DNA of 63,939 bases, counting the filler, from Collodictyon triciliatum (taxonomy: Eukaryota), in assembly GCA_043381765.1 (NCBI GenBank). It is 5 parts of 5 records of this genome, joined end to end, with 100 filler letters (N's around TTAATTAATTAA, not from the genome) between each part and the next. Parts side by side here need not be neighbours in the genome. Positions count along the whole stretch, not along the records: positions 45,617 to 60,721 come from JBHJMP010001720.1; 4 more parts are not named here. One strand, written 5' to 3'. Below the pieces are notes generated by a model. The model was not told the DNA's origin and made no database searches. It saw only the letters and a program-made list of their open reading frames with translations. A program made the position numbers and the translations under genes. Shown here piece after piece: positions 12,930 through 60,821 of the stretch; within the stretch, counting starts at the first letter, position 1; each line of letters begins with the position of its first letter.

Positions 12930-13715
12930 TCAGTGGTTGAGGAGGAAGTGAATGTCCATCTTTGCGCTGGTGTGTAGCTGCGGGGAGACGCTTGTGGCGG
13001 GGCTGTCGCGCAATAAAGCGAGGGCGAGAGCATGCGTCTGACTGTGGTCGTGGCTGTGGCTGTGGTCGTGGCTGTGGCTGTGGTCGTGGCTGTGGCTGTG
13101 GTCGTGGCGAGCCTTCGTCTGATGCAGCAGCCAGCGGGAGCGGCACTGGACATCAGAGCGCGAGGCCACGGCCCTGCTGACGCGCATCCAGGAGGCGGTG
13201 CCGCAGTGGAGGACGGCGCGTGCCAGCGCAGCGTCCTCGTGGGGGAGCCACGCACCCTTGTGCAGGGCGGGGTTCAGGACCCGGTTCCAGCGCTGCGCAC
13301 ACTGCTTGGCGCTCTTGCCAGCCCCGCTCGCGCCGCGGCGACGATGCAGCTCCCCAATCTCTCGCGACACGCGCCTCCAGCCGCAGTGCCTGTCAATTCC
13401 ATTCTCATTCTCGTTGTCATTGTCATTGTCATTAGGATTATCGTGGTCTTGGTGATAATCATGGCGATAATCACTGTGGCTGGTGTTGACTCTGTCCGGG
13501 ATGTTGCCTTCGCTCCGGCTGTGGCAGGCTGCTCCCATCGCCCGCACAACCACTGCGTCTTCCTCCGCGTCCCACGCGTTGACGTGCTGCTTGAAGAGTC
13601 GCGTCTGCCGCACCCCTTCTGCTGGTCGGCTGCTCTCCGGCGTGAACAGTGATATCCGCAGCTCTCCGCCTTCACGTTGTCTCCGCACCCCTCTGCTATC
13701 TTGTGTGAAAAGCAT
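12930..13715 (-). CDS. Intronless R2R3-type Myb DNA-binding protein
   Basis: WDAEEDAVV...GWRRVS...KSAKQCAQRWNRVLNPALHKGAWLPHEDAALARAVLHCGTASWMRVSRAVASRSDVQCRSRW gives two Trp-cluster Myb repeats. First in-frame ATG is at 13715; the frame is open upstream to 13913 through an (AKE/TKE)n repeat. GC-rich. Confidence 0.88.
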   Translation of the reverse strand: MLFTQDSRGVRRQREGGELRISLFTPESSRPAEGVRQTRLFKQHVNAWDAEEDAVVVRAMGAACHSRSEGNIPDRVNTSHSDYRHDYHQDHDNPNDNDNDNENENGIDRHCGWRRVSREIGELHRRRGASGAGKSAKQCAQRWNRVLNPALHKGAWLPHEDAALARAVLHCGTASWMRVSRAVASRSDVQCRSRWLLHQTKARHDHSHSHDHSHSHDHSHSHDHSQTHALALALLRDSPATSVSPQLHTSAKMDIHFLLNH

Positions 13716-13767
13716 GTCTGCGTCTGCTGCCTGCGGTGGAAACAACCCCCTTCTGTTTGGTTTGGTT

Positions 13768-13866
13768 TCCTTGGTTTCCTTGGTTTCCTTGGTTTCTTTG
13801 GTTTCTTTGGCTTCTTTGGCTTCTTTGGCTTCTTTGGCTTCTTTGGCTTCTTTGGCTTCTTTGGCT
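13768..13866. repeat. 9-mer tandem repeat (ttggcttct/ttggtttcc)n upstream of Myb ATG
   Basis: Visible 9-mer array. Confidence 0.9.
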
Positions 13867-15111
13867 TTTCCTGGGGCTGCTAGGTGGATGCTGTGCGTGG
13901 GTCGTGCTTTCAGTCACTTTTCCATTTGATCCTCTCCCAAACACGAGCTTGCTCTTTTTCTATATGCGCGACGCGCACACATATTCACACCCCTGGTGCG
14001 CTCTCGCAGATATGTGAAATGAATCCTTTCAATCGCGCAAGAAAGCGCTTTATATTGCCTTCTTTCTTTCTCTCTTTCACTTTTTTTTTCAATTCTTTGG
14101 TTTGTTTTAGTTTTGTTAAGCAAAGTCGACACTAAGGGGGTTGAAGAAAATCAAAAGCCAAGCAGAGAAAAAAGGGTCTGTTCCTGAAGAGGCCGCGTTG
14201 GGTTGTGCCACGACACCCTTGCCGGATGAGGAAGAATATTCGATGAATGCATCAGCTTTGGGCACCTCGTCTTGCAATTTACTGTACCGGCATGCCCATA
14301 TTGGATAAACACAACAATTGATATCTGCACTATATTCGAAGTATCCTTCCTTTTATGAATTTTGTGGCTTTTCTTCGCCAAATTTCATTTCCATATCCAA
14401 TAAATTCTGGTGAATTTCCGACCCATTTCTGTATTTGGGCTGCGCATTGAATTTTTATTACCCATATATATCATTAATTCGTCACAGGTCGTGTAATGCG
14501 CTGGCATAACTGCAAATTTGGAATTTCATGAGCAGAACTTGCCGTCATCGTGCGTATGTTGGCTCAAATTAAGACAAATATGGCATTAAAAAACAGTATG
14601 GCTCGTGATTCAGAAATGAAGTTTATTCAAAGCCCGTTCTGATAATTTTCCAGAACTTGCATATACTATATTTATATGTATGTTATATATATGTAATTAT
14701 TATTTGCACTAAAGAGGATTATAAATACACTCGTAAGCTTTAAGTAGACAAATAATTTATTTTCCATTTTTGTAAAATCATTTCAACCCAGATTCTAGTA
14801 ATCCAAGTCCAAATACTTCGTTATCATATTTTTTTTGTGCGCTTGCTTGTCGTCTGGACAAAGGCCAACAAATCGAACTGTATACCGCTCGTTTGGGTGC
14901 CAATATCCATGCCGAAGCTGTTGCCAGACCGATCCCACTCGAGCCCTTTACCCATGGCGGTATTGGTTACGAGATAATTCTTTTCATCAATCATTTTCTC
15001 GATGCTGGTCAACTGCTTGCAGAAAGTCGAAGCCGAACCCTGTCCCTAGGGAAACCCTTCATATATACCACTATTAAACCCCCAAACCGCCCCCCCACCA
15101 ACTCCACCACC

Positions 15112-22284: not shown

Positions 22285-25200
22285 TTAGAAGAGACTGGCA
22301 GCCTTCTTGAGGTTGTCCTTCTTCCACTGGGGCAGCTTGGTGAACTCGTCGCGCTTGACCTTGAAGACCTTTTCAAACTCGGCGTCCTCCAGGTAGTCCT
22401 CCAGTCTGGTGGCGTTGACAGAGGCCGGGAAGTTGCGGCTCTTCAGCTGCTCGTAGGTGTACTTCTTGGAGTACTCTGCAAGTGCGGCGTTGGCTGTGAC
22501 CGGACCGGCCTGGGCAGAAGCCTTGGATACGCGGTGACAAGCGAGATTGAGTATGAGTGTGTGTGTAAATAGATATGGTTGATTGCCCAGCAGCAGCAGA
22601 ACAGAAAGCGGAGAGGGATATACCTCGCGAATCTTGCGCTGAAGAGGGTCTTCATTACTCTTGGCGAGGGCGACGTCCCATGCGTGGAACTGGTTTGTGT
22701 TGAGGAAGAAAACATAGTCTGTGTGAGGGCCCTGCTTCAACCAATTATGTGCTTTCGATTGATTCTGGACACGAACATGTAAAAGCGATGATGGATAGAA
22801 AGGTGGCAGAGAAGGAGGAGAGGACAAAGTAAAGGTCTCTTGCCTGGGCGGTGAAGTTCGGTGGCTCCGACCCGGCATTCACAACGTAGATGGGGGCGTC
22901 AGAGGAGCGTCCGTCCTTGGATTGCTTGACGTAGTCGACAGCAGTTTCCAGAGCCATCTTCTTCTCGGTCTCGTTGGCCTTGGAGCCAACCCACACAAAG
23001 ACCTCGTTGAAGCAGTCGAGAATCATGACGTCGTCGTTGACCAGGTCGTCCTGGCTGTGGGGATTATTGCACGCATGAGGAGGTGGTGATTCGTGAATCA
23101 AACATCAGGGATACTCTGCACCGTTGAATAGGGAAAAGATGCTAGGCGATGGGTACCTGAAGTTGAAAATCTCCTCCACGCGGAACGAGCCGGTGGCGTT
23201 GGAGCACTGGAAGAGACGAGGCTCGCGGGGGGCTTCCTGGAGCTCAGGGGCGTCGGCATACTCGGCCTTGCCGCCGAGGAAGCCCCAGAACTCCTCGCTT
23301 TCGGTTCCTTCATCGACCGGAACAACCTCGCGCTTGCCCTGGAGAAGGCGGGCGATGGACTGGGCGTAAGTGCGCTCCACAGAGCTGGATCCCTTTCCGA
23401 ACCAGATGAACTGCTTGGCAGGGGTCACGAGGATGAAGGCATCTCCAGAGTTGAGGGAGGCGGCAACCTCGTCGACTTGGATGGCTGTGGTATATCGGCA
23501 TAGGGCAGGTTTAGAATGTTGCCTGCTCGGCGATGGGATTTGCGGCTGCGATGAGAGGTCACGGGAATGCCTTTCCAGTGTATGGATGGGAGGTGGGAGA
23601 ATATCTTGCCTCGGGTATTGAGAGGGTTCGTGCCACGGACGTGGAAGAGTGAGACTCCGTCAACATCGTAGCTGTCACCCTCGCCAGCATTCTTGAATCC
23701 GCTGGCACGTCCACCCTATCGAATAAACTCTCGTGAGGAAATTAAAAAGATGAGACATAAAAGAAAAAGAACAGAAAACCGAGAGGCTTCATGACCACTT
23801 CTTTTTCCTCTTCTCGAATGCTTTTTACCTTGTGGACAATCATGCGACCCTTGAACAAAGTGAGGAAGTGGTTGGGCTCCTTGTTCTGGACGACACGGGC
23901 TTGGACAGCCTGGCCATTGAGGCGGTCGTCAATCTCCTTGGCGTGGAGGGCCGAAGCGCCTTTTTCGTCGGCTGTGGAATCGCGACCTTGCCAGAAGTAG
24001 ACAAGGTAGTTCTCCTTGGTCTGAACGGTGTATGTGTACAGAAGGACATAAGAGTCCCCGGAGTAGAATTGTCCGAACTGGTCCTTGGGCCAGGCAACGG
24101 GCTTGAAGTCTTCGATGCGCCAGATCTTTCAGACAGAAGAACATGCAGGAAAATGAAGATATGAGGAGATACTCAGTACAGAGGTAATTGAAACCAGGTA
24201 CATGTTGTCAGGGGCACTGTGTACATTCGATGCAATCACATTTAAAAATAAACAAAGGAGGGGAAAAAAAAAAAAAGAGAGAGCCATACTTCGAGTTTTC
24301 CAGTTCCATCGTCGACTGATTTGGTGTCTTCTTCGGCCTGCTTGGCGTGAAGCTTGGCAATGTCGATTTTCTCTTGTGAAACCTTATTTTTATTTTTGGT
24401 TTCAATAGAAAGAACTGTAAGTAACGATAAATTAAATGGTATAATGAGTCCGTCAAACTGGATATGAGGCCCCTCCACTTGCGAATAAAAAATTGATGGC
24501 CACCTTTGCAATGTTGGAAGAGGAGCCAGTGTGGACGAGGGTTCCGGGCCTAAAGACATCGCTCCAGTTGGAGAACTTAGCCTTGAAGAGAGGTGTTTCG
24601 GATGCTGAAATGGGGATAAATGACTATGCGAGTGAGCGAGTGAAATGGTTACAGGGCACTACAATGATAAAAACAGATAATAAGGATGAAATGAATGGGT
24701 TTGATAGGTCATGTATATTAAACAAGCAAGATTTCTGGGAACTGGATAATTGAAATATGGTTCTTTTATTAACAAAAATAACATTAAAAGGAGAGGGACA
24801 GACCTTCAGCAACACGGGAAATAGGGGTCCAGTTGGGGCGGTTAAACTTTGTGAGGAAGGCCTGTCCGTGCTTCATGGCTTCCTTGCGGAGCCCAGCAGA
24901 AGATGCCTTGCCGATCCAGATGTAGACCTCAGTCTCGCAGTCGAGGATATAAGCCTGCAATATCTGCGTTACAACCCGCCTTCATCCATACGATGCAGAA
25001 TATACCCTGAAGGAATGTATGAAAAGACAAAGAATAGACAAACCGAGCCAGTCTTGAGAAGCTCCTTGGTGAGCGGGGCATCGACGTGGTTGACGGATCC
25101 ATTCTCTTGGACCTGTGAGAGCAAGAGCGGATCAGCAATAGAACAATGAACAAAATATGACAGGGGCAGTGATATCTCGATTCATGCGCAGAGATAAGAA

Positions 25201-26761
25201 GAAATATGTGAGATGCAAAGCCCCAGGCGTACCTCAAACAGCTTCCCAGCAGAGCTCTTTTCAAAGGCCTCGTCATCTCCGGCAGAGCTCGCATCAGCAA
25301 CAGCCACGCGGCCGGATGTGCTGCCCAAGGCACTCCAGAACTCAGAGTCGTTGTCGTTGGTTCCGTCCTCAAGGACAACTATGGACGCCTTCCCGCCGCG
25401 CTCCTGGTTCTTGATGTTGGTGGCCACGTCAAAGCCCTTGGCCTTCTCCAGGCGATGCGCATCCTTGCCGTTCCACTGGTAGATCGTCAGACCCTTGTCC
25501 AGCACAAAGACGTCGCCGTGGTTCAGAGAGCTGACCTTGTTCTCCACCTGAACGCAAGGGCCCGCATGTGTGTTGTGATGTTAAACGTCAGCCTTGCCTC
25601 TGTGAGACACGGGTCTTTCTTTCCTTGCCCTTCATGACTATGGGACAGGAATTGTGATGCCAATAATGGTATGAGTGAGGAGAGACAAACGCGCTTGACG
25701 CGGGCGAAGCGGCGGCCCTTGACGTGCAGGAGGCGGGTCTCGTATTCATCGCGGACAACGTGGCGGAAGCCGCTGGCTACTCCGCCGGCAAGATACTGCA
25801 CGCCGCCCTTGAACAGCGACAGAAACAGCTGCGACTCGTGGTCTTGGACCTGGGCACAGAAGCCAGAGCCCGGTTAGAGGAAGTGTTTGTTTTTTCATTT
25901 TGTTATGTCATGCTTTTTGTTAATAAAAAAAAATTATATAAAAGGACATATTTCATAGCCTTCAGGAAAATAAAGTAGATGTAGGCCACGCCAAAGTGGT
26001 TATTAAAAAAGCGAAGAAAAGATGTGTATCATTATTTGCAAGTGCGTCTCCCAAGCAAGGTCGTGGATGACATGTGGAATATAGAAAGAACGGGCGCGAC
26101 AGGAAAGGTAATAAGATCGATTCCGCTTTTGGGTAAAGATCGTGGCAGGCGATGCTTACTTCGCGATGTTGGACGGGGCCGCCTCCGAGGGAATCGTCCA
26201 GCTCGACAGTCTTGTAGGCAGCGACACCAGCCTCGTCCTGAATAGCGTATTTCGGGGATTAGCGCACCGGCCATTTGTGGAAATGTGGATTCAGGGAGGG
26301 AGGAAGGGGGCTGGTGATTGTGGCGAGCGGCTTGCCTGGCTGGTCTCTGCGCCCAACCAGAAGTGGATGTCGTAGTCGAAGGAGGACTTTCCAGGTCTCT
26401 GCTTGGTCTGTTTAGGTGCGCTTTCGTTAGACTCAGTGTGAAGGGTTTCGGAGTATAAGAGGACAGCAGTTGGCAGGAAAAGTGTTGGGTAAGTTTTTTT
26501 CTTTTCATTCTTGTTACGTGAAGGACGATGTAGGAGTCGCCAGTGTAGAACTTTCCGTAGAGCTCCACAGGCACAGGGACGGGCTTCAGAGCCTCGATTC
26601 TCCAGATTTCGAGTCCACTGCAAGGGAAAGGGAAGGCGCAAATAGGGCACGTTATTATTCCTGTCACTATTCTACGAGTGATGGTTTGCAGTGGGAAAAA
26701 AAAAAACAGCTATTGTCTAGTGTTCTTACGGTTTCTTTCCGCAGCCGGCAAAGTCGCTCAT
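22285..26761 (-). CDS. Villin: six gelsolin repeats plus headpiece, 16 exons
   Basis: GLEIWRIE...[109 protein letters not shown]; headpiece [14 protein letters not shown]...[19 protein letters not shown]. High GC3. Confidence 0.96.
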
Positions 26762-56225: not shown

Positions 56226-56297
56226 TCCGTTATGGTGTAGTCGGTAGCACGTATGGCTCTCACCCATACAACCCGGGTTCGATTCCCGGTAACGGAA
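56226..56297 (+). tRNA. tRNA-Glu (anticodon CTC)
   Basis: Acceptor stem TCCGTTA/TAACGGA + discriminator A; A-box TGGTGTAGTCGG; anticodon arm TATGG-CTCTCAC-CCATA; T-arm CCGGG-TTCGATT-CCCGG; followed by a TTTTT Pol III terminator. Confidence 0.96.
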
Positions 56298-57311
56298 TTT
56301 TTGCACCGTTTTTCTCTTCCCCGATTCCTTATCGTCTATTTTTTTTTTGGTTTTTTTTTGGTGTTGCCCATACCTGGTGCGTTGCCTTTGGCGGTAGATA
56401 CAAGGCGCGTGGACCCGACTATGACAACACCATTTCGGATGCTTAGATGCAAGGGCATGCGCTTGTTGTCATCGAATGACTCTTTTACTGCACCTTTGAC
56501 CTTATTCATTTCATTTCTTTTTCCCGTTCATTTTTTCTTTTCCTTTTCCTTTTCTCCTTTTTTCATTCGCCCGTTTCTTTTTTCTTTTTCTTTCTGTTTT
56601 TCTCTTCGGTCTCATCCAGCCTGTAAATGGATAAGCTTCATTGCTAAGGTTGTGACGAACTTGGTTTTATCCCTTTCAAGGCACAACACTTTTTATACAG
56701 CGAATGTGTACCTATATGTAGCAATTTATCGCACAGGCAACCACTGAATTAAATCTGGATTGACAAGAGCAGGAGCTTTGATGAATCCTAGAAACAACCT
56801 GAATAATACAATAGTATAATTAGTATATACAATAAGATTAAAAAATACTTAATATTAAGTATATATTGATGTCAATTTATATTTATTTTCTATTTATGTA
56901 ACAATTTTCATTAAAATCCAAAAATTACAAACAAGTCCTTGCCTTGGCTCAGACAGAACCCACCCCGTAAACCTGCCACCAAACATGCATTTCAAAGAAG
57001 TATACTATCCACACTTAGGGCGATAATCATGTTGTTTGAGGCTGATATGTTGACTTTCAATCGCAATGGCTACACGGCCGTCCTTTCGAACTCGCCGAAT
57101 CGGCTCTCAGCGTTTTGTCTCGAATCACTTATAAATTTTTTGTGTGTTTGTTTGCCACAATGCGCACATTTTGAGAGTCTCAGTAGATGCTTCATTTTAC
57201 ATAAATTGATTTTGTGCAGTTGTCATTATTAAATTGACTGATTGACTAAAGTTTTATTAAAATTGAAAGCTCAGTAGTTCTCTAAAGGAAAAGTAAAACA
57301 AAGACTTTCGC

Positions 57312-59155
57312 ATGAAGAAAAGAAAGCTTCTTGAGTCTGAGAATCTAAAGTCTGTAAAGCCAGACTATCGAAATGTGAAAACATCTCTAAAGTCGATTGT
57401 AAAGAATGCGGATGACTATTAAAAAAAAAATAAACAGTGCGATTTTATTGTGTCATAATTTGGTTACCAACACTTATCTGTTTGCAAGACGTTATATATT
57501 GAAATCACAACTAGTCCCAACAATCGATGAAATATGTTTTTTTGTTCACTTTAAAGACAGTCGGAGTAGTTTTACAAGATAGACCGGCAAGATTAAAAAT
57601 TACCAGATATGAGATATGGCATGATGACTTTTTATCTCTATGATTTCCGATTCCTTTTGTCCCGAGAAGAACGCTTTCCGTTTGTTGGATTGTCTCATGT
57701 ATTACCGTACTTGGCGGAGCAAATGTTAACAGCTTATCATAATAACATTAAGGAGCATTTTGTAAAGAGGTTACTGCGCTTTATAAATCAAACAGTCCCT
57801 AAAGATGAGAATATGACGAAACCTATTAAAAAAAAAAAGCAAAGTTACGAAAGTTAAAAAAAAGCCATCTTCAAGAAACTCGAAATACCAACAATACAAA
57901 GAATGGGCTAAAATACATTTGCATCATATGATTACCAGCGGCATTGTAAATGGTATCAAATATATCGTCAAAGTCAATCCAAATAAGTACATTCCATTTC
58001 TGATTTACATGAATCTCATTTTTGAGGACATTGGAACCAAACTGTTTCAACCAATCTCCAGAAGAACTACCAATATATCACGTCATATTACTCTAGCTAC
58101 TGCATTTTGATATATCTATTAGTATTATCTGTAAAAAATATCATTATTGAAGAATATATCAGGATGCAAAGAGACACTATGGGATAAGTTCTTTGAAATG
58201 AAGAAGAGGGTCTTTCATCAAAGAGACTAAAATTTCAAATATATGATACAAACAGACGGCTTGGTGGTGCTATTATTGTTTGAAAAAAAGTATTTCAAAT
58301 TCAAGATTCAAATATAATAAAAACCAAGAATATGTTTGTATAGATGAACTTTCCGTAGAGCAGTTATCATTATTAGCGACAAAAAAAATAGTTGGAGTGG
58401 ACGCAGGCAAGTTTAACTTGGTTTAGATGGCGGATGAGGCAGGTAAGAAATTACGTTACACGGCACACCAAACAAGACATGATAGCAAATATCTTAATCA
58501 CAAAATACTCTTGCGAGAGAAAAAAAGAAAAGAAAAAGGACGATGCTTCAGGGATATATGCATGGCAACATATCTACAAAGTGCTGTTTCTTTTGGTCAC
58601 ATGACTTTTGAAGAGAATCAGCAGTTTGAGACATCAAGAGCATCTTTAATCAATTTAGAGACAGAACTGAGTAAACATAATTCATGCACGGTTGATTATG
58701 AAAAATTTCTAGAATATGTATCTATGAAATCAAGATACCAGATATAATCATTCAGATTTTATGAACAAGTAACTTTTCGAAAGATGAGATGAAGACAGTA
58801 TGTTAATGCAAAAAGAAGTGAACAATTGTTAATGGACCGAATCGAAAAGACATCTGGCAAGGGTGTTGTAATGGCGTATGGAGACAGGAGCAGAAAATAT
58901 CCAATGAAACATTTTATGCAAACAATCGGAAGAGGATTACGAAAAATACTATCCAAACGTTTTGAAACAGTTAGTGCAGATGAATTTAGAACATCCAAGA
59001 TGTGTTGTAACTTCGAAAAAGAACTGGAATATATGAAACTGAGAGGAAATTCAATAAAGTTGTATAGATGTCTCATTTGTAAAGAATGCATATGTATATG
59101 TATCACCTTTTTAATTTTTTTTATTTCCAAACCTATTTCTTCCAATATTTTCTGA
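57312..59155 (+). pseudogene. Decayed Fanzor1 (eukaryotic TnpB-like RNA-guided RuvC nuclease), transposon/giant-virus type
   Basis: Across stops and frameshifts: YRNVKTSLKSIVK; HNLVTNTYLFAR; LPYLAEQMLTAYHNNIKEHFVKRLLRFIN; KLFQPISRRTT...HITL; YMIQTDGLVVLLLF; RuvC-I IVGVDAGK (Asp 58400-58402); LRYTAHQ; ETELSKHNSCTVDYEKF; FRKMR*RQY; MAYGDRS...MKHFMQT..RGLRK; RuvC-II ADEFRTSKMCC (Glu 58982-58984); Zn finger CLICKEC. No introns through the body. Confidence 0.88.
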
Positions 59156-59674
59156 CTTTTCATATTTGCGCTCGCCGGCCCGAACGAGAAATCAATGTAT
59201 CCAGGTTTGAGAGCCTCGTGCAATACGGCTTCCTGAACAGCCTGCTGAATCACGCTCGCATTCTTCGCTATTCTGACCGCAAGCGAAGAGAGATGTGGGA
59301 ATGTGTCGTGCGATATCTCCCACAGCATATCCAACCCCTGCTACCCACGCAACCAATCAACCAGTTGGGTCGCCCACCTGACCAACTCGCTATCACTGAT
59401 TTCTTGCCAGTGCTAGCACCTCCACGGTAGTGTCTTTCCCTACTCGCGTCTGCTCTCTATCATGCGCTCCCATCCCGCCCCTTTGTATGGCGTAACCTCG
59501 CTACACTTTGAATCGAATAAAGGAAAATTTTTTTTTTGCGCTCGCCGAATTCATGATTTCCAGCCACCACCCTCCCACACCCACCATTCCAACAGCAGTC
59601 GTCTATCAGCCAATATACTAGGAGAGGCGCAGATGGGGCCGATTTACCCATGCACAAAATCAACGTGGGCAAAC

Positions 59675-60050
<376 letters not shown>

Positions 60051-60721
60051 AGATGCATAGACGCACTATCTATTTGTAGAATAAAATCGATCATAGACTA
60101 CCTAATCACGAGTTGTTATACAACCTCTGAAAGTTCTCTTCTATATCCGACTGAAATATCGAGAGATATAATCGACCAGTAAGGGATACTCCCTACAGAA
60201 CACAGCAAATCATACAATCTGGACTCCCAAACATGGAGCAGAGTGGGAGCGGGGCTTTGACCTCAACGCAACACACTGCTCACACAGGAAGAGATTCTAC
60301 TACGAACCAGTCGCACGAATGAGTCTCCAAACTCCAAAGCTGGGCTGGCGTCATCAGACTCTGCCGAGGGACCTCGCCCAGAAACGACGGCTGCTTCTCC
60401 CGAATACACCCACATCCAAAGGGCGAAGAGCTCCTCTCACATATATCCTACGCAATCGCGATACTACTCGAGGTATACACACCTACTATCATGAAGGTTG
60501 TCTGCTTTTTGACACGTATATGTTTATTTTCATCCATTTTTTCTATAATTTTTAAACCTCTACCCTGTCCATATATCCCATAAATGCTTCAGAAAATAAC
60601 AGGAGTGTTTACTCTTTCCCTCGAGAAAAAAAAGAATGTTAAAAACAAAAACAAAAAACAAAAAACAAAAACAAAAACAAAAAACAAAAAACAAAAAACA
60701 AAAAACAAAAAACAAAAAACA

Positions 60722-60821
60722 NNNNNNNNNNNNNNNNNNNNNNNNNNNNNNNNNNNNNNNNNNNNTTAATTAATTAANNNNNNNNNNNNNNNNNNNNNNN
60801 NNNNNNNNNNNNNNNNNNNNN
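60722..60821. other. Artificial scaffold linker
   Basis: 44N-TTAATTAATTAA-44N. Confidence 0.97.

What the first reader, a model, noticed from the sequence alone, without database searches (positions are those of the whole stretch)
57312..59155. Fanzor1 (TnpB-derived RNA-guided nuclease) relic in a protist nuclear genome
Seen: a ~1.8-kb intronless AT-rich reading split over frames that the ORF track shows only as fragments. It carries the ordered Fanzor1 motifs (KTSLKSI; NNIKEHF; TDG; RuvC-I VGVDAG; LRYT; YGD; DEFRTSK.CC; CxxC). From 58322 to 59155 it is one frame with three premature stops (58424, 58745, 58790). Known: Fanzors are eukaryotic OMEGA nucleases carried by DNA transposons and giant viruses; the catalytic Glu is shifted into the DEFRTS motif and the canonical position reads YGD, as here. 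Inference: this copy is dead, but it marks a Fanzor family in this lineage, and intact copies with omegaRNA may exist elsewhere in the genome. Lack of introns in an intron-dense genome suggests acquisition from a virus or transposon.
Basis: partly seen in the sequence, partly recalled or inferred. Interest (0 to 1): 0.85.

Follow-up and report, generated by a model that had tools for sequence, protein, structure and literature searches.

The report
Dead, truncated Fanzor1 nuclease gene copy
This stretch is a decayed and 3'-truncated copy of a Fanzor1 gene (a transposon-borne RNA-guided DNA cutter of eukaryotes and giant viruses) lying in a eukaryotic nuclear scaffold; it is a real but ordinary relic of a known gene family.

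Summary
Window 57312-59089 (+) is colinear, without intron-sized gaps, with residues 1-590 of an intact 648-aa metagenome protein, P0002 (346 of 582 aligned residues identical). A profile of P0002 and nine relatives hits only three solved structures, all Fanzor1 (E 1.6e-86, 4.6e-75, 1.2e-48).

The copy is dead:
- 7 frameshifts and 5 in-frame stops.
- A Cys-to-Phe change in the zinc finger.
- Homology ends at 59089, so the last 58 residues, with the RuvC-III "RD" motif, are missing.

Laying contigs of four public runs on it showed hundreds of short pieces 80-99% alike. Many of these read a sense codon or a frame-restoring indel at the window's lesions, and some run on past 59090 into the missing C-terminus. 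It is therefore one decayed member of a multicopy family.

In a quick unrooted tree the relic and P0002 fall inside a clade that holds all 20 giant-virus-collection rows. Two of the closest intact relatives sit in a 3.3-kb element with terminal inverted repeats and a DDE_3 transposase. The window has neither. I could not search the source genome.

Verdict: a new member of a known kind, of low to moderate interest.

The parts
57224..57311 (+). 5' leader upstream of the start codon, shared with other copies of the family. The left limit is approximate (57.22-57.27 kb).
   Evidence: contigs of runs X1-X4 still lie on 57224-57311. The number of contigs reporting a difference rises from 1-2 at 57224 to 5-8 at 57269 and 9-14 at 57326. 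X1 has a loose end before 57226.
57312..59089 (+). Fanzor1 pseudogene body, colinear with residues 1-590 of the 648-aa P0002 and with no intron-sized gap.
   Evidence: tblastn. Frameshift-aware alignment, 346/582 identical. Homologue search, E 1.7e-89. PDB hits are Fanzor1 only.
57420..58282 (+). Span holding the seven frameshifts: 57420, 57535, 57596, 57891, 58143 and 58282 (one base too many each) and 58105 (two bases too many). It also holds in-frame stops at 57855 (TAA) and 58228 (TAA).
   Evidence: Five of the seven sites lie in or beside homopolymer runs of 5 or more bases, and two do not. Other copies carry +GG behind 57889, +G behind 58105, -1 at 58133, and +G/+C behind 58286/58291.
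58400..58402 (+). RuvC-I catalytic Asp codon (GAC) in VGVDAGK. The motif reads DAG rather than DPG.
   Evidence: D364 is invariant in alignment A1. Three of the ten A1 members (P0006, P0007, P0009) also read DAG.
58424..58426 (+). In-frame TAG at an invariant Tyr position.
   Evidence: Other copies read TAC here: 58426 G>C in 13 contigs of X2, 10 of X4, 3 of X3 and 1 of X1.
58745..58747 (+). In-frame TAA.
58790..58792 (+). In-frame TGA where P0002, P0003 and P0004 have Trp.
   Evidence: Other copies read TGG: 58792 A>G in 5, 8, 1 and 12 contigs of X1-X4.
58877..58885 (+). YGD, at the canonical RuvC-II position. The Gly is invariant and the Asp nearly invariant in the family.
58979..59014 (+). 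DEFRTSKMCCNF. It holds the C-terminally shifted RuvC-II Glu (58982-58984) and the first zinc-finger pair. The second Cys of that pair is Phe (TTC, 59012-59014).
   Evidence: 59013 T>G (giving TGC, Cys) in 7, 14, 8 and 21 contigs of X1-X4, which is nearly all the depth there.
59078..59089 (+). Second zinc-finger pair CKEC. These are the last codons with homology.
59090..59091 (.). Truncation junction. The C-terminal 58 residues of the family, with RuvC-III RDxNxxxN, and whatever 3' end or guide-RNA region followed are missing.
   Evidence: alignment ends. (no RD.N...N[IML] motif in any frame of the window); depth of X2 and X4 falls to 0 after about 59142; a loose end in X1 behind 59090 reads on as ..RSESKQSIF, like P0002 KRSESNQTVF; one 151-nt X1 contig is identical to the window over 59026-59176.

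Best explanation
Window 57312-59089 is a pseudogene: one decayed, 3'-truncated copy of a multicopy, intronless Fanzor1 element. Intact Fanzor1 proteins are TnpB-derived nucleases. They bind a guide RNA (omegaRNA) made from the element's 3' end and cut matching double-stranded DNA with a RuvC site built from three residues: a RuvC-I Asp, a C-terminally shifted RuvC-II Glu next to a C4 zinc finger, and a RuvC-III Asp. That mechanism comes from the literature and was not tested here. This copy cannot do any of it. Its frame is broken 12 times, one zinc ligand is lost, and the RuvC-III segment and everything 3' of it, where the guide RNA and right end normally lie, are deleted. Shown here: the homology, the lesions, the truncation, and the existence of many related copies elsewhere. 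Inferred: that the family moved as a solo Fanzor element, or was mobilised in trans by a Tc1/mariner-type DDE transposase as in two of its closest intact relatives; and that it was exchanged with giant viruses.
For: Homology to P0002: E 1.7e-89 and 61% identity over the C-terminal half; 59% (346/582) over residues 1-590 with frameshifts allowed. Family profile A1 against the PDB: only three hits, all Fanzor1. The relic alone against the PDB: only two hits, both Fanzor1. Lesions: 7 frameshifts and 5 stops, Cys to Phe at 59012-59014, no RuvC-III motif in the window. Multicopy family: 144, 337, 67 and 320 contigs of runs X1-X4 lie on 57200-59200 at 80% likeness or more, with up to about 20 contigs at one place. 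They read TAC at 58424-6, TGG at 58790-2 and TGC at 59012-4. They carry indels of the frame-restoring size at or near four of the seven frameshift sites, and they run on into the missing C-terminus behind 59090. Standard genetic code in the host: a villin-headpiece ORF ends in TAA right after the domain, and a 699-codon host ORF with 166 Gln/Glu codons has no internal stop. The stops in the relic are therefore real stops. In the tree the relic's end branch is 0.59 against 0.26 for P0002, as expected for relaxed constraint. Nuclear context: the scaffold carries a villin-like gene in several ORF pieces (two Gelsolin repeats and a VHP domain, on the far side of an N gap at about 42.5-43 kb) and a Myb ORF. 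A partial kinase exon (43012-43245, below Pfam's cut-off) and the tRNA-Glu lie on the relic's side of that gap.
Against: Five of the seven frameshift sites lie in or beside homopolymer runs, so some could be assembly errors rather than mutations. No sequencing run holding half or more of the stretch's sampled words was listed to check this. The only contig identical across the truncation junction may come from the window's own source sample. Neither element end was found: no terminal inverted repeat, no target-site duplication, no transposase. 'Transposon copy' therefore rests on copy number in other runs, not on anatomy. For three stops (57855, 58228, 58745) and three frameshift sites (57420, 57535, 57596) the shown rows list no frame-restoring difference in other copies; 548 and 123 further rows were not shown. 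At 57422 other copies read C, which turns the TAA there into TAC.
Confidence: 0.9

Rival explanations
1. It is a leftover of a single integration of giant-virus DNA (a fragment of an endogenous viral element), not a copy of a host-resident transposon family.
For: The relic and P0002 lie inside a starred (98) clade of 26 rows that holds all 20 rows from the viral collection. 354 of 581 pattern matches in the viral collection encode relatives, and 34 of the 80 kept loci are on contigs named GVMAG. The neighbours of the two close relatives I examined are an mRNA capping enzyme, ribonucleotide reductase, HSP70 and a helicase. The gene is intronless.
Against: tblastx of window 43-64 kb against all 160 fetched loci gives real similarity only at 57250-59100, so nothing else virus-like lies beside it. 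That test sees only genes present in the fetched flanks. Hundreds of diverged contigs in runs labelled as two organisms point to a multicopy family. The relic's GC (0.33) is close to that of its surroundings (0.33-0.41 in the neighbouring 1-kb windows).
Confidence: 0.1
2. The gene is intact in the organism, and the lesions are assembly or sequencing errors or belong to a minor allele.
For: Five of the seven frameshift sites lie in or beside homopolymer runs. The scaffold has N gaps. No run holding the locus was available to check.
Against: Five substitution-type stops, a Cys to Phe substitution and the loss of 58 C-terminal residues are not homopolymer errors. At 58426, one of the two X1 contigs covering the place shows the window's own letter. 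A 151-nt X1 contig reproduces the truncation junction exactly, though it may come from the same source.
Confidence: 0.03
3. It derives from another TnpB-type family (Fanzor2, bacterial TnpB or a Cas12-like gene), or it is bacterial or viral contamination joined into the scaffold.
For: The relic's only Pfam hit is weak and generic: OrfB_IS605, E 0.0028, 18.3 bits against a cut-off of 30.5.
Against: The PDB search at E 0.01 or better returns no TnpB, Fanzor2 or Cas12 chain, only Fanzor1, and the alignment to SpuFz1 covers the long N-terminal part as well. The relic lies between N gaps, on the same side as the tRNA-Glu and a partial kinase exon.
Confidence: 0.02

Closest known systems
Fanzor1 RNA-guided endonucleases with solved structures (Parasitella parasitica PpFz1 9cf0, Spizellomyces punctatus SpuFz1 8gkh, Guillardia theta GtFz1 9cer)
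   Same: The family profile aligns to SpuFz1 over profile positions 14-632 of 652, at E 4.6e-75. The relic keeps the RuvC-I Asp, the YGD position, the shifted Glu in EFRTS six residues before the zinc finger, and three of four zinc ligands. These are the signatures given for Fanzors in bioRxiv 10.1101/2023.08.09.552727 and, for the extra conserved Gly and Glu of Fanzor1, in PMC3627910 (passages read).
   Different: The window copy is a pseudogene with 12 frame lesions. It reads DAG instead of DPG at RuvC-I. It has Phe for one zinc Cys. It lacks RuvC-III and any 3' guide-RNA region. Its closest relatives are metagenomic and giant-virus sequences, not these fungal and algal proteins.
Mariner/Tc1-type elements that carry Fanzor1 in giant viruses (PGv-1 and relatives, Bao and Jurka 2013, PMC3627910, passages read)
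   Same: In L002 and L082, among the closest intact relatives with DNA in hand, Fanzor1 lies beside a divergent 343- or 346-aa HTH + DDE_3 transposase. Both genes sit inside a 3.3-kb unit bounded by the same 32-33-nt terminal inverted repeats, with TA at both outer edges. 67 of 160 fetched loci hold a homologue of that transposase in their flanks.
   Different: The window has no trace of the transposase (best E 0.06, at 19.1 kb) and no trace of the repeat at 3 mismatches or fewer. The similarity of other copies seems to begin only about 50-90 nt before the start codon.
Spu-1 solo Fanzor elements of Spizellomyces punctatus, with full-length and partial Fanzor loci and ORF-less 'ghost' loci (PMC10432273, passages read)
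   Same: A roughly 2-kb single-ORF, intronless unit. The family appears multicopy with many diverged and partial copies.
   Different: No inverted repeats or guide RNA could be defined here. Copy number in the source genome could not be measured.
Bacterial TnpB (IS200/IS605, IS607) and Fanzor2
   Same: A distant common RuvC plus zinc-ribbon core: a weak OrfB_IS605 hit, and Cas12f1-like_TNB hits in five of six relatives scanned.
   Different: No TnpB, Fanzor2 or Cas12 chain reaches E 0.01 with the family profile. The family has the long N-terminal extension of Fanzor1.

Membership tests
Fanzor1 | Sequence homology along the whole protein, N-terminal part included, to proven Fanzor1 nucleases | tested here: met
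   Profile A1 against the PDB: PpFz1 1.6e-86, SpuFz1 4.6e-75 (profile positions 14-632), GtFz1 1.2e-48, and nothing else at E 0.01 or better. The relic is colinear with A1 member P0002 over residues 1-590.
Fanzor1 | RuvC-I Asp in a DPG motif | tested here: inconclusive
   The Asp is present (58400-58402), but the motif reads DAG. Three of the ten A1 members (P0006, P0007, P0009) also read DAG.
Fanzor1 | C-terminally shifted RuvC-II Glu six residues before the zinc finger, with Gly at the canonical position | tested here: met
   ADEFRTSKMC at 58976-59005 and YGD at 58877-58885. E555 and G521 are invariant in A1.
Fanzor1 | C4 zinc finger between RuvC-II and RuvC-III | tested here: not met
   Three of the four Cys are kept. 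The second Cys of the first pair is Phe (59012-59014), and other copies read Cys there.
Fanzor1 | RuvC-III Arg-Asp motif | tested here: not met
   Homology ends at 59089. No RD.N...N[IML] motif exists in any frame of the window.
Fanzor1 | Open reading frame that can make the protein | tested here: not met
   7 frameshifts and 5 in-frame stops. The host uses the standard stop codons.
Fanzor1 | Guide RNA (omegaRNA) encoded at the 3' end or right end of the element | not testable with these tools
   The 3' end is deleted in the window. Rfam finds only the tRNA. No RNA holder was listed among the runs.
Tc1/mariner (IS630-like) Fanzor1-carrying transposon | DDE transposase, terminal inverted repeats and a TA duplication around the unit | tested here: not met
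   None in the window. All are present in relatives L002 and L082.

The most novel reading that the evidence does not exclude
The relic is the fossil of a Fanzor1 family that is still multicopy, and perhaps still active, in a lineage of freshwater microbial eukaryotes. On this reading the family was exchanged fairly recently with giant viruses, in which its relatives travel inside a 3.3-kb Tc1/mariner-type element. Intact members would then be an uncharacterised compact (about 620-650 aa) RNA-guided nuclease subfamily with a DAG or DPG RuvC-I motif.
Probability: 0.35. Interest if true: 0.45.

Novelty: new member of a known kind. Interest (0 to 1): 0.25.

Why it matters
Fanzor1 genes are already known from fungi, protists, arthropods, plants and giant viruses (PMC10432273 and PMC3627910, passages read), and dead copies are expected wherever the family has lived. 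This copy has no function.

Its value is as a marker. It shows that this eukaryotic lineage hosted a Fanzor1 family whose nearest relatives with DNA in hand include sequences in giant-virus genomes. That adds a data point to the idea that viruses spread Fanzors. It also points to where intact, possibly usable nucleases with their guide RNAs might be found: other copies in the same genome, and the two coded organisms of runs X2 and X4.

Tried and rejected
- **Mimivirus-type early promoter:** the octamer AAAATTGA (motif recalled from memory) lies 46 nt before the start codon (57259-57266). The window holds 15 copies against 14.5 expected, and 0 of 74 viral relatives with 150 nt or more of upstream sequence have it there. 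Rejected.
- **Altered genetic code as the reason for the stops:** rejected. It could not explain the frameshifts in any case.
- **Missing C-terminus displaced downstream:** no tblastn hit at E 10 or better and no RuvC-III motif anywhere in the window.
- **DDE_3 transposase relic between the tRNA and the gene:** nothing better than E 26 in that stretch.
- **Terminal repeat of the viral elements:** absent from the window.
- **Repeats within the window:** self-BLASTN of 56300-60700 found none. The inverted and direct repeats near the relic are short, AT-rich or simple.
- **Other virus-like genes near the relic:** none by tblastx against the 160 loci.
- **Pfam on flanking ORFs:** no family above threshold, and no Med10.
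- **Closer relatives:** the metagenome scan with the relic's own half gave 0 relatives among 79 pattern matches. The scan with the profile gave nothing closer to P0002 than 47%. A near-length protein search gave one 223-aa fragment at 60% identity.
- **Sequencing runs:** no listed run holds half or more of the sampled words (best share 0.13), and no RNA holder is listed. This says nothing about expression. X2 and X4 are only guessed to be RNA.
- **PF26935.1:** this precomputed label on the relatives is not in the local Pfam copy, so I cannot name it.
- **Not done:** no structure prediction and no complex prediction were run.

Full report
**What is in the sequence.** The stretch 57.3-59.2 kb is AT-rich (GC 0.33) and has no long ORF. 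Frame 2 from 58247 to 59155 reads through with internal stops at exactly 58424 (TAG), 58745 (TAA) and 58790 (TGA).

**Homology.**
- The read-through C-terminal half (P0001, X at the stops) has one weak, sub-threshold Pfam hit: OrfB_IS605, E 0.0028.
- Against all PDB chains it hits only two sequences, both Fanzor1: Parasitella PpFz1 at 2.9e-6 and Spizellomyces SpuFz1 at 1.2e-3.
- Against 5.8 billion proteins it finds ten longer proteins of 563-671 aa. The best is P0002 (648 aa), at E 1.7e-89 and 61% identity.
- tblastn of P0002 on the window covers residues 1-590 between 57312 and 59089, in three frames.
- My frameshift-aware alignment gives 346 identities in 582 aligned pairs, with no intron-sized gap.

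**The lesions.**
- Seven frameshifts: 57420, 57535, 57596, 57891, 58105, 58143, 58282.
- Five in-frame stops: 57855, 58228, 58424, 58745, 58790.

**Family assignment.**
- An alignment of the ten relatives (A1) has these invariant positions: TDG, the RuvC-I Asp, Gly at the canonical RuvC-II place, EFRTS, three Cys of the zinc finger (the fourth falls outside the invariant list) and RDxN.
- A profile of A1 hits only three PDB sequences at E 0.01 or better, all Fanzor1: PpFz1 at 1.6e-86, SpuFz1 at 4.6e-75 (aligned over profile positions 14-632 of 652) and GtFz1 at 1.2e-48. No TnpB, Fanzor2 or Cas12 chain appears.
- A DPG motif at RuvC-I, and a RuvC-II Glu shifted to six residues before the zinc finger, are given as the Fanzor signature in bioRxiv 10.1101/2023.08.09.552727 (passages). 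An extra conserved Gly and Glu in Fanzor1 are noted in PMC3627910 (passages).
- The relic keeps the Asp (in DAG, as in three of the ten relatives), YGD, DEFRTSK and three of four zinc ligands.
- Its second Cys is Phe. Homology stops right after CKEC at 59089.
- The last 58 residues of P0002, with RuvC-III, have no counterpart anywhere in the window.

**Are the stops real?** The host reads the standard code. A villin-headpiece ORF ends in TAA directly after the domain, and a 699-codon host ORF with 166 Gln/Glu codons has no internal stop. Five of the seven frameshift sites lie in or beside homopolymer runs, so some might be assembly errors. The substitutions and the truncation cannot be.

**Other copies.**
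- No whole genome is held, and no listed run holds half or more of the stretch's sampled words (best share 0.13).
- Laying contigs of four runs on 57200-59200 at 80% likeness or more placed 144, 337, 67 and 320 short contigs. Two runs are freshwater metagenomes. Two are labelled as coded organisms A and B, from one study.
- Most contigs are 80-95% alike and some 99% or more, with up to about 20 contigs at one place. That is the picture of a diverged multicopy family.
- At the window's lesions these copies mostly read otherwise:
  - 58426 G>C gives TAC (Tyr).
  - 58792 A>G gives TGG (Trp).
  - 59013 T>G gives TGC (Cys).
  - 57422 A>C turns the TAA there into TAC.
  - +GG behind 57889, +G behind 58105, -1 at 58133, and +G/+C behind 58286/58291 are each the size that restores the frame at my frameshift sites.
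- Depth falls away after 59090. A loose end in X1 behind 59090 continues as ..RSESKQSIF, matching P0002 KRSESNQTVF.
- One 151-nt X1 contig is identical to the window across the junction (59026-59176). It may come from the window's own source sample.
- For the other three stops, and for the frameshift sites at 57535 and 57596, the shown rows list no difference. 548 and 123 further rows were not shown.

**Relatives and their setting.**
- In the viral collection, 354 of 581 pattern matches encode relatives. Of the 80 loci kept, 34 lie on contigs named GVMAG. That name stands for giant-virus metagenome-assembled genomes, according to the abstract listed for PMC13524828.
- In the metagenome collection, 468 of 597 matches encode relatives. 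Nothing there is closer to P0002 than 47%.
- A quick IQ-TREE was built from 59 rows: the relic, 10 database proteins and 48 loci. The 48 are what remained of the 153 full-length ORFs among the 160 loci after near-duplicates were dropped.
  - The relic joins P0002 (support 100).
  - The pair sits inside a clade of 26 rows (support 98) that holds all 20 viral-collection rows.
  - The relic's end branch is 0.59 against 0.26 for P0002.
  - The tree is unrooted and the origin of P0002 is unknown, so the direction of transfer is open.
- In L002 and L082, Fanzor1 lies next to a divergent HTH + DDE_3 transposase. The surrounding genes are an mRNA capping enzyme, ribonucleotide reductase, HSP70 and a helicase.
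- In both loci the two genes are enclosed by the same 32-33-nt terminal inverted repeats with TA at the outer edges. The unit is 3.3 kb. The repeat sequence also occurs in L001, L081 and L083.
- 67 of 160 loci hold a homologue of the transposase within their fetched flanks.
- This matches the Mariner elements carrying Fanzor1 described from giant viruses in PMC3627910 (passages).

**The window's own surroundings.**
- No transposase relic, no copy of that terminal repeat and no convincing inverted or direct repeats around the relic.
- No other similarity to the 160 loci outside 57250-59100.
- Rfam finds only the tRNA-Glu at 56226-56297.
- The scaffold is nuclear and eukaryotic. It carries a villin-like gene in several ORF pieces (Gelsolin repeats and a VHP domain), a Myb ORF, and a partial kinase exon at 43012-43245 on the relic's side of the N gap.

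**Verdict.** The finding is right in substance. It is a dead Fanzor1 copy, more damaged than described and lacking its catalytic C-terminus and 3' end. It belongs to a known family with a known distribution in protists and giant viruses (PMC10432273, passages). The new information is modest. The copy is one member of a multicopy family that is also seen in public runs. Among its nearest relatives are sequences in giant-virus genomes, two of which I examined and found inside a Tc1/mariner-type element. The guide RNA, the element ends and the copy number in the source genome remain untested.

Noticed in passing
L002:3627-6949 and L082:4637-7952 (also L001, L081, L083): A 3.3-kb mobile unit in giant-virus-like contigs. 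The same 32-33-nt terminal inverted repeats, with TA at the outer edges, enclose a divergent HTH + DDE_3 transposase and a Fanzor1 gene. The unit sits between different neighbours in the two contigs: a capping enzyme in one, ribonucleotide reductase and HSP70 in the other.
   Followed up: partly
L002:6668-6681/6736-6749 and L082:7671-7684/7739-7752: The same 14-nt inverted repeat, with arms 54 nt apart, lies inside the 3' part of the Fanzor1 ORF in both loci. It could be part of the guide-RNA scaffold or simply conserved coding sequence. Not tested for covariation.
   Followed up: no
160 fetched loci (L001-L160): 67 of 160 loci hold a homologue (E 1e-5 or better) of the DDE_3 transposase within the fetched flanks of their Fanzor1 gene. 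Some lie on the opposite strand and some on the same strand, at varying distance.
   Followed up: partly
window 59158-59177, 59528-59547 and 57084-57100: A GC-rich motif (TTTGCGCTCGCCG and a variant) recurs 370 nt apart just after the truncation point and once upstream of the relic. The segments 56915-57160 and 59165-59560 look GC-richer than the relic by eye. No family match was found and their nature is unexplained.
   Followed up: no
window 59574-60070, 56489-56613, 60626-60718: Dense simple repeats flank the locus: an 8-nt-period GATA/CATA-type array of about 0.5 kb, T/C-rich runs after the tRNA, and an (A5-6C)n array. N gaps lie at 60722-60821, at about 42.5-43.0 kb and at about 12.2 kb.
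   Followed up: no
window 57312-57326 and the N-termini of P0002-P0004 and the viral ORFs: All start with a basic cluster (MKKRK.., MPKKKPK.., MSKKKKLK..). This may be a nuclear localisation signal. It was seen only in the sequences and was not tested.
   Followed up: no
window 58759-59340 (-): A 193-aa open frame on the opposite strand overlaps the relic's 3' end and the flank. Only its flank part (59159-59340) was scanned, with no Pfam match. It is probably spurious.
   Followed up: partly
window 12930-13913 and 22285-26709 (-): The two GC-rich islands of the window (0.52-0.60) coincide with a Myb-domain ORF and with a villin-like gene in several ORF pieces (Gelsolin repeats plus a villin headpiece).
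   Followed up: partly
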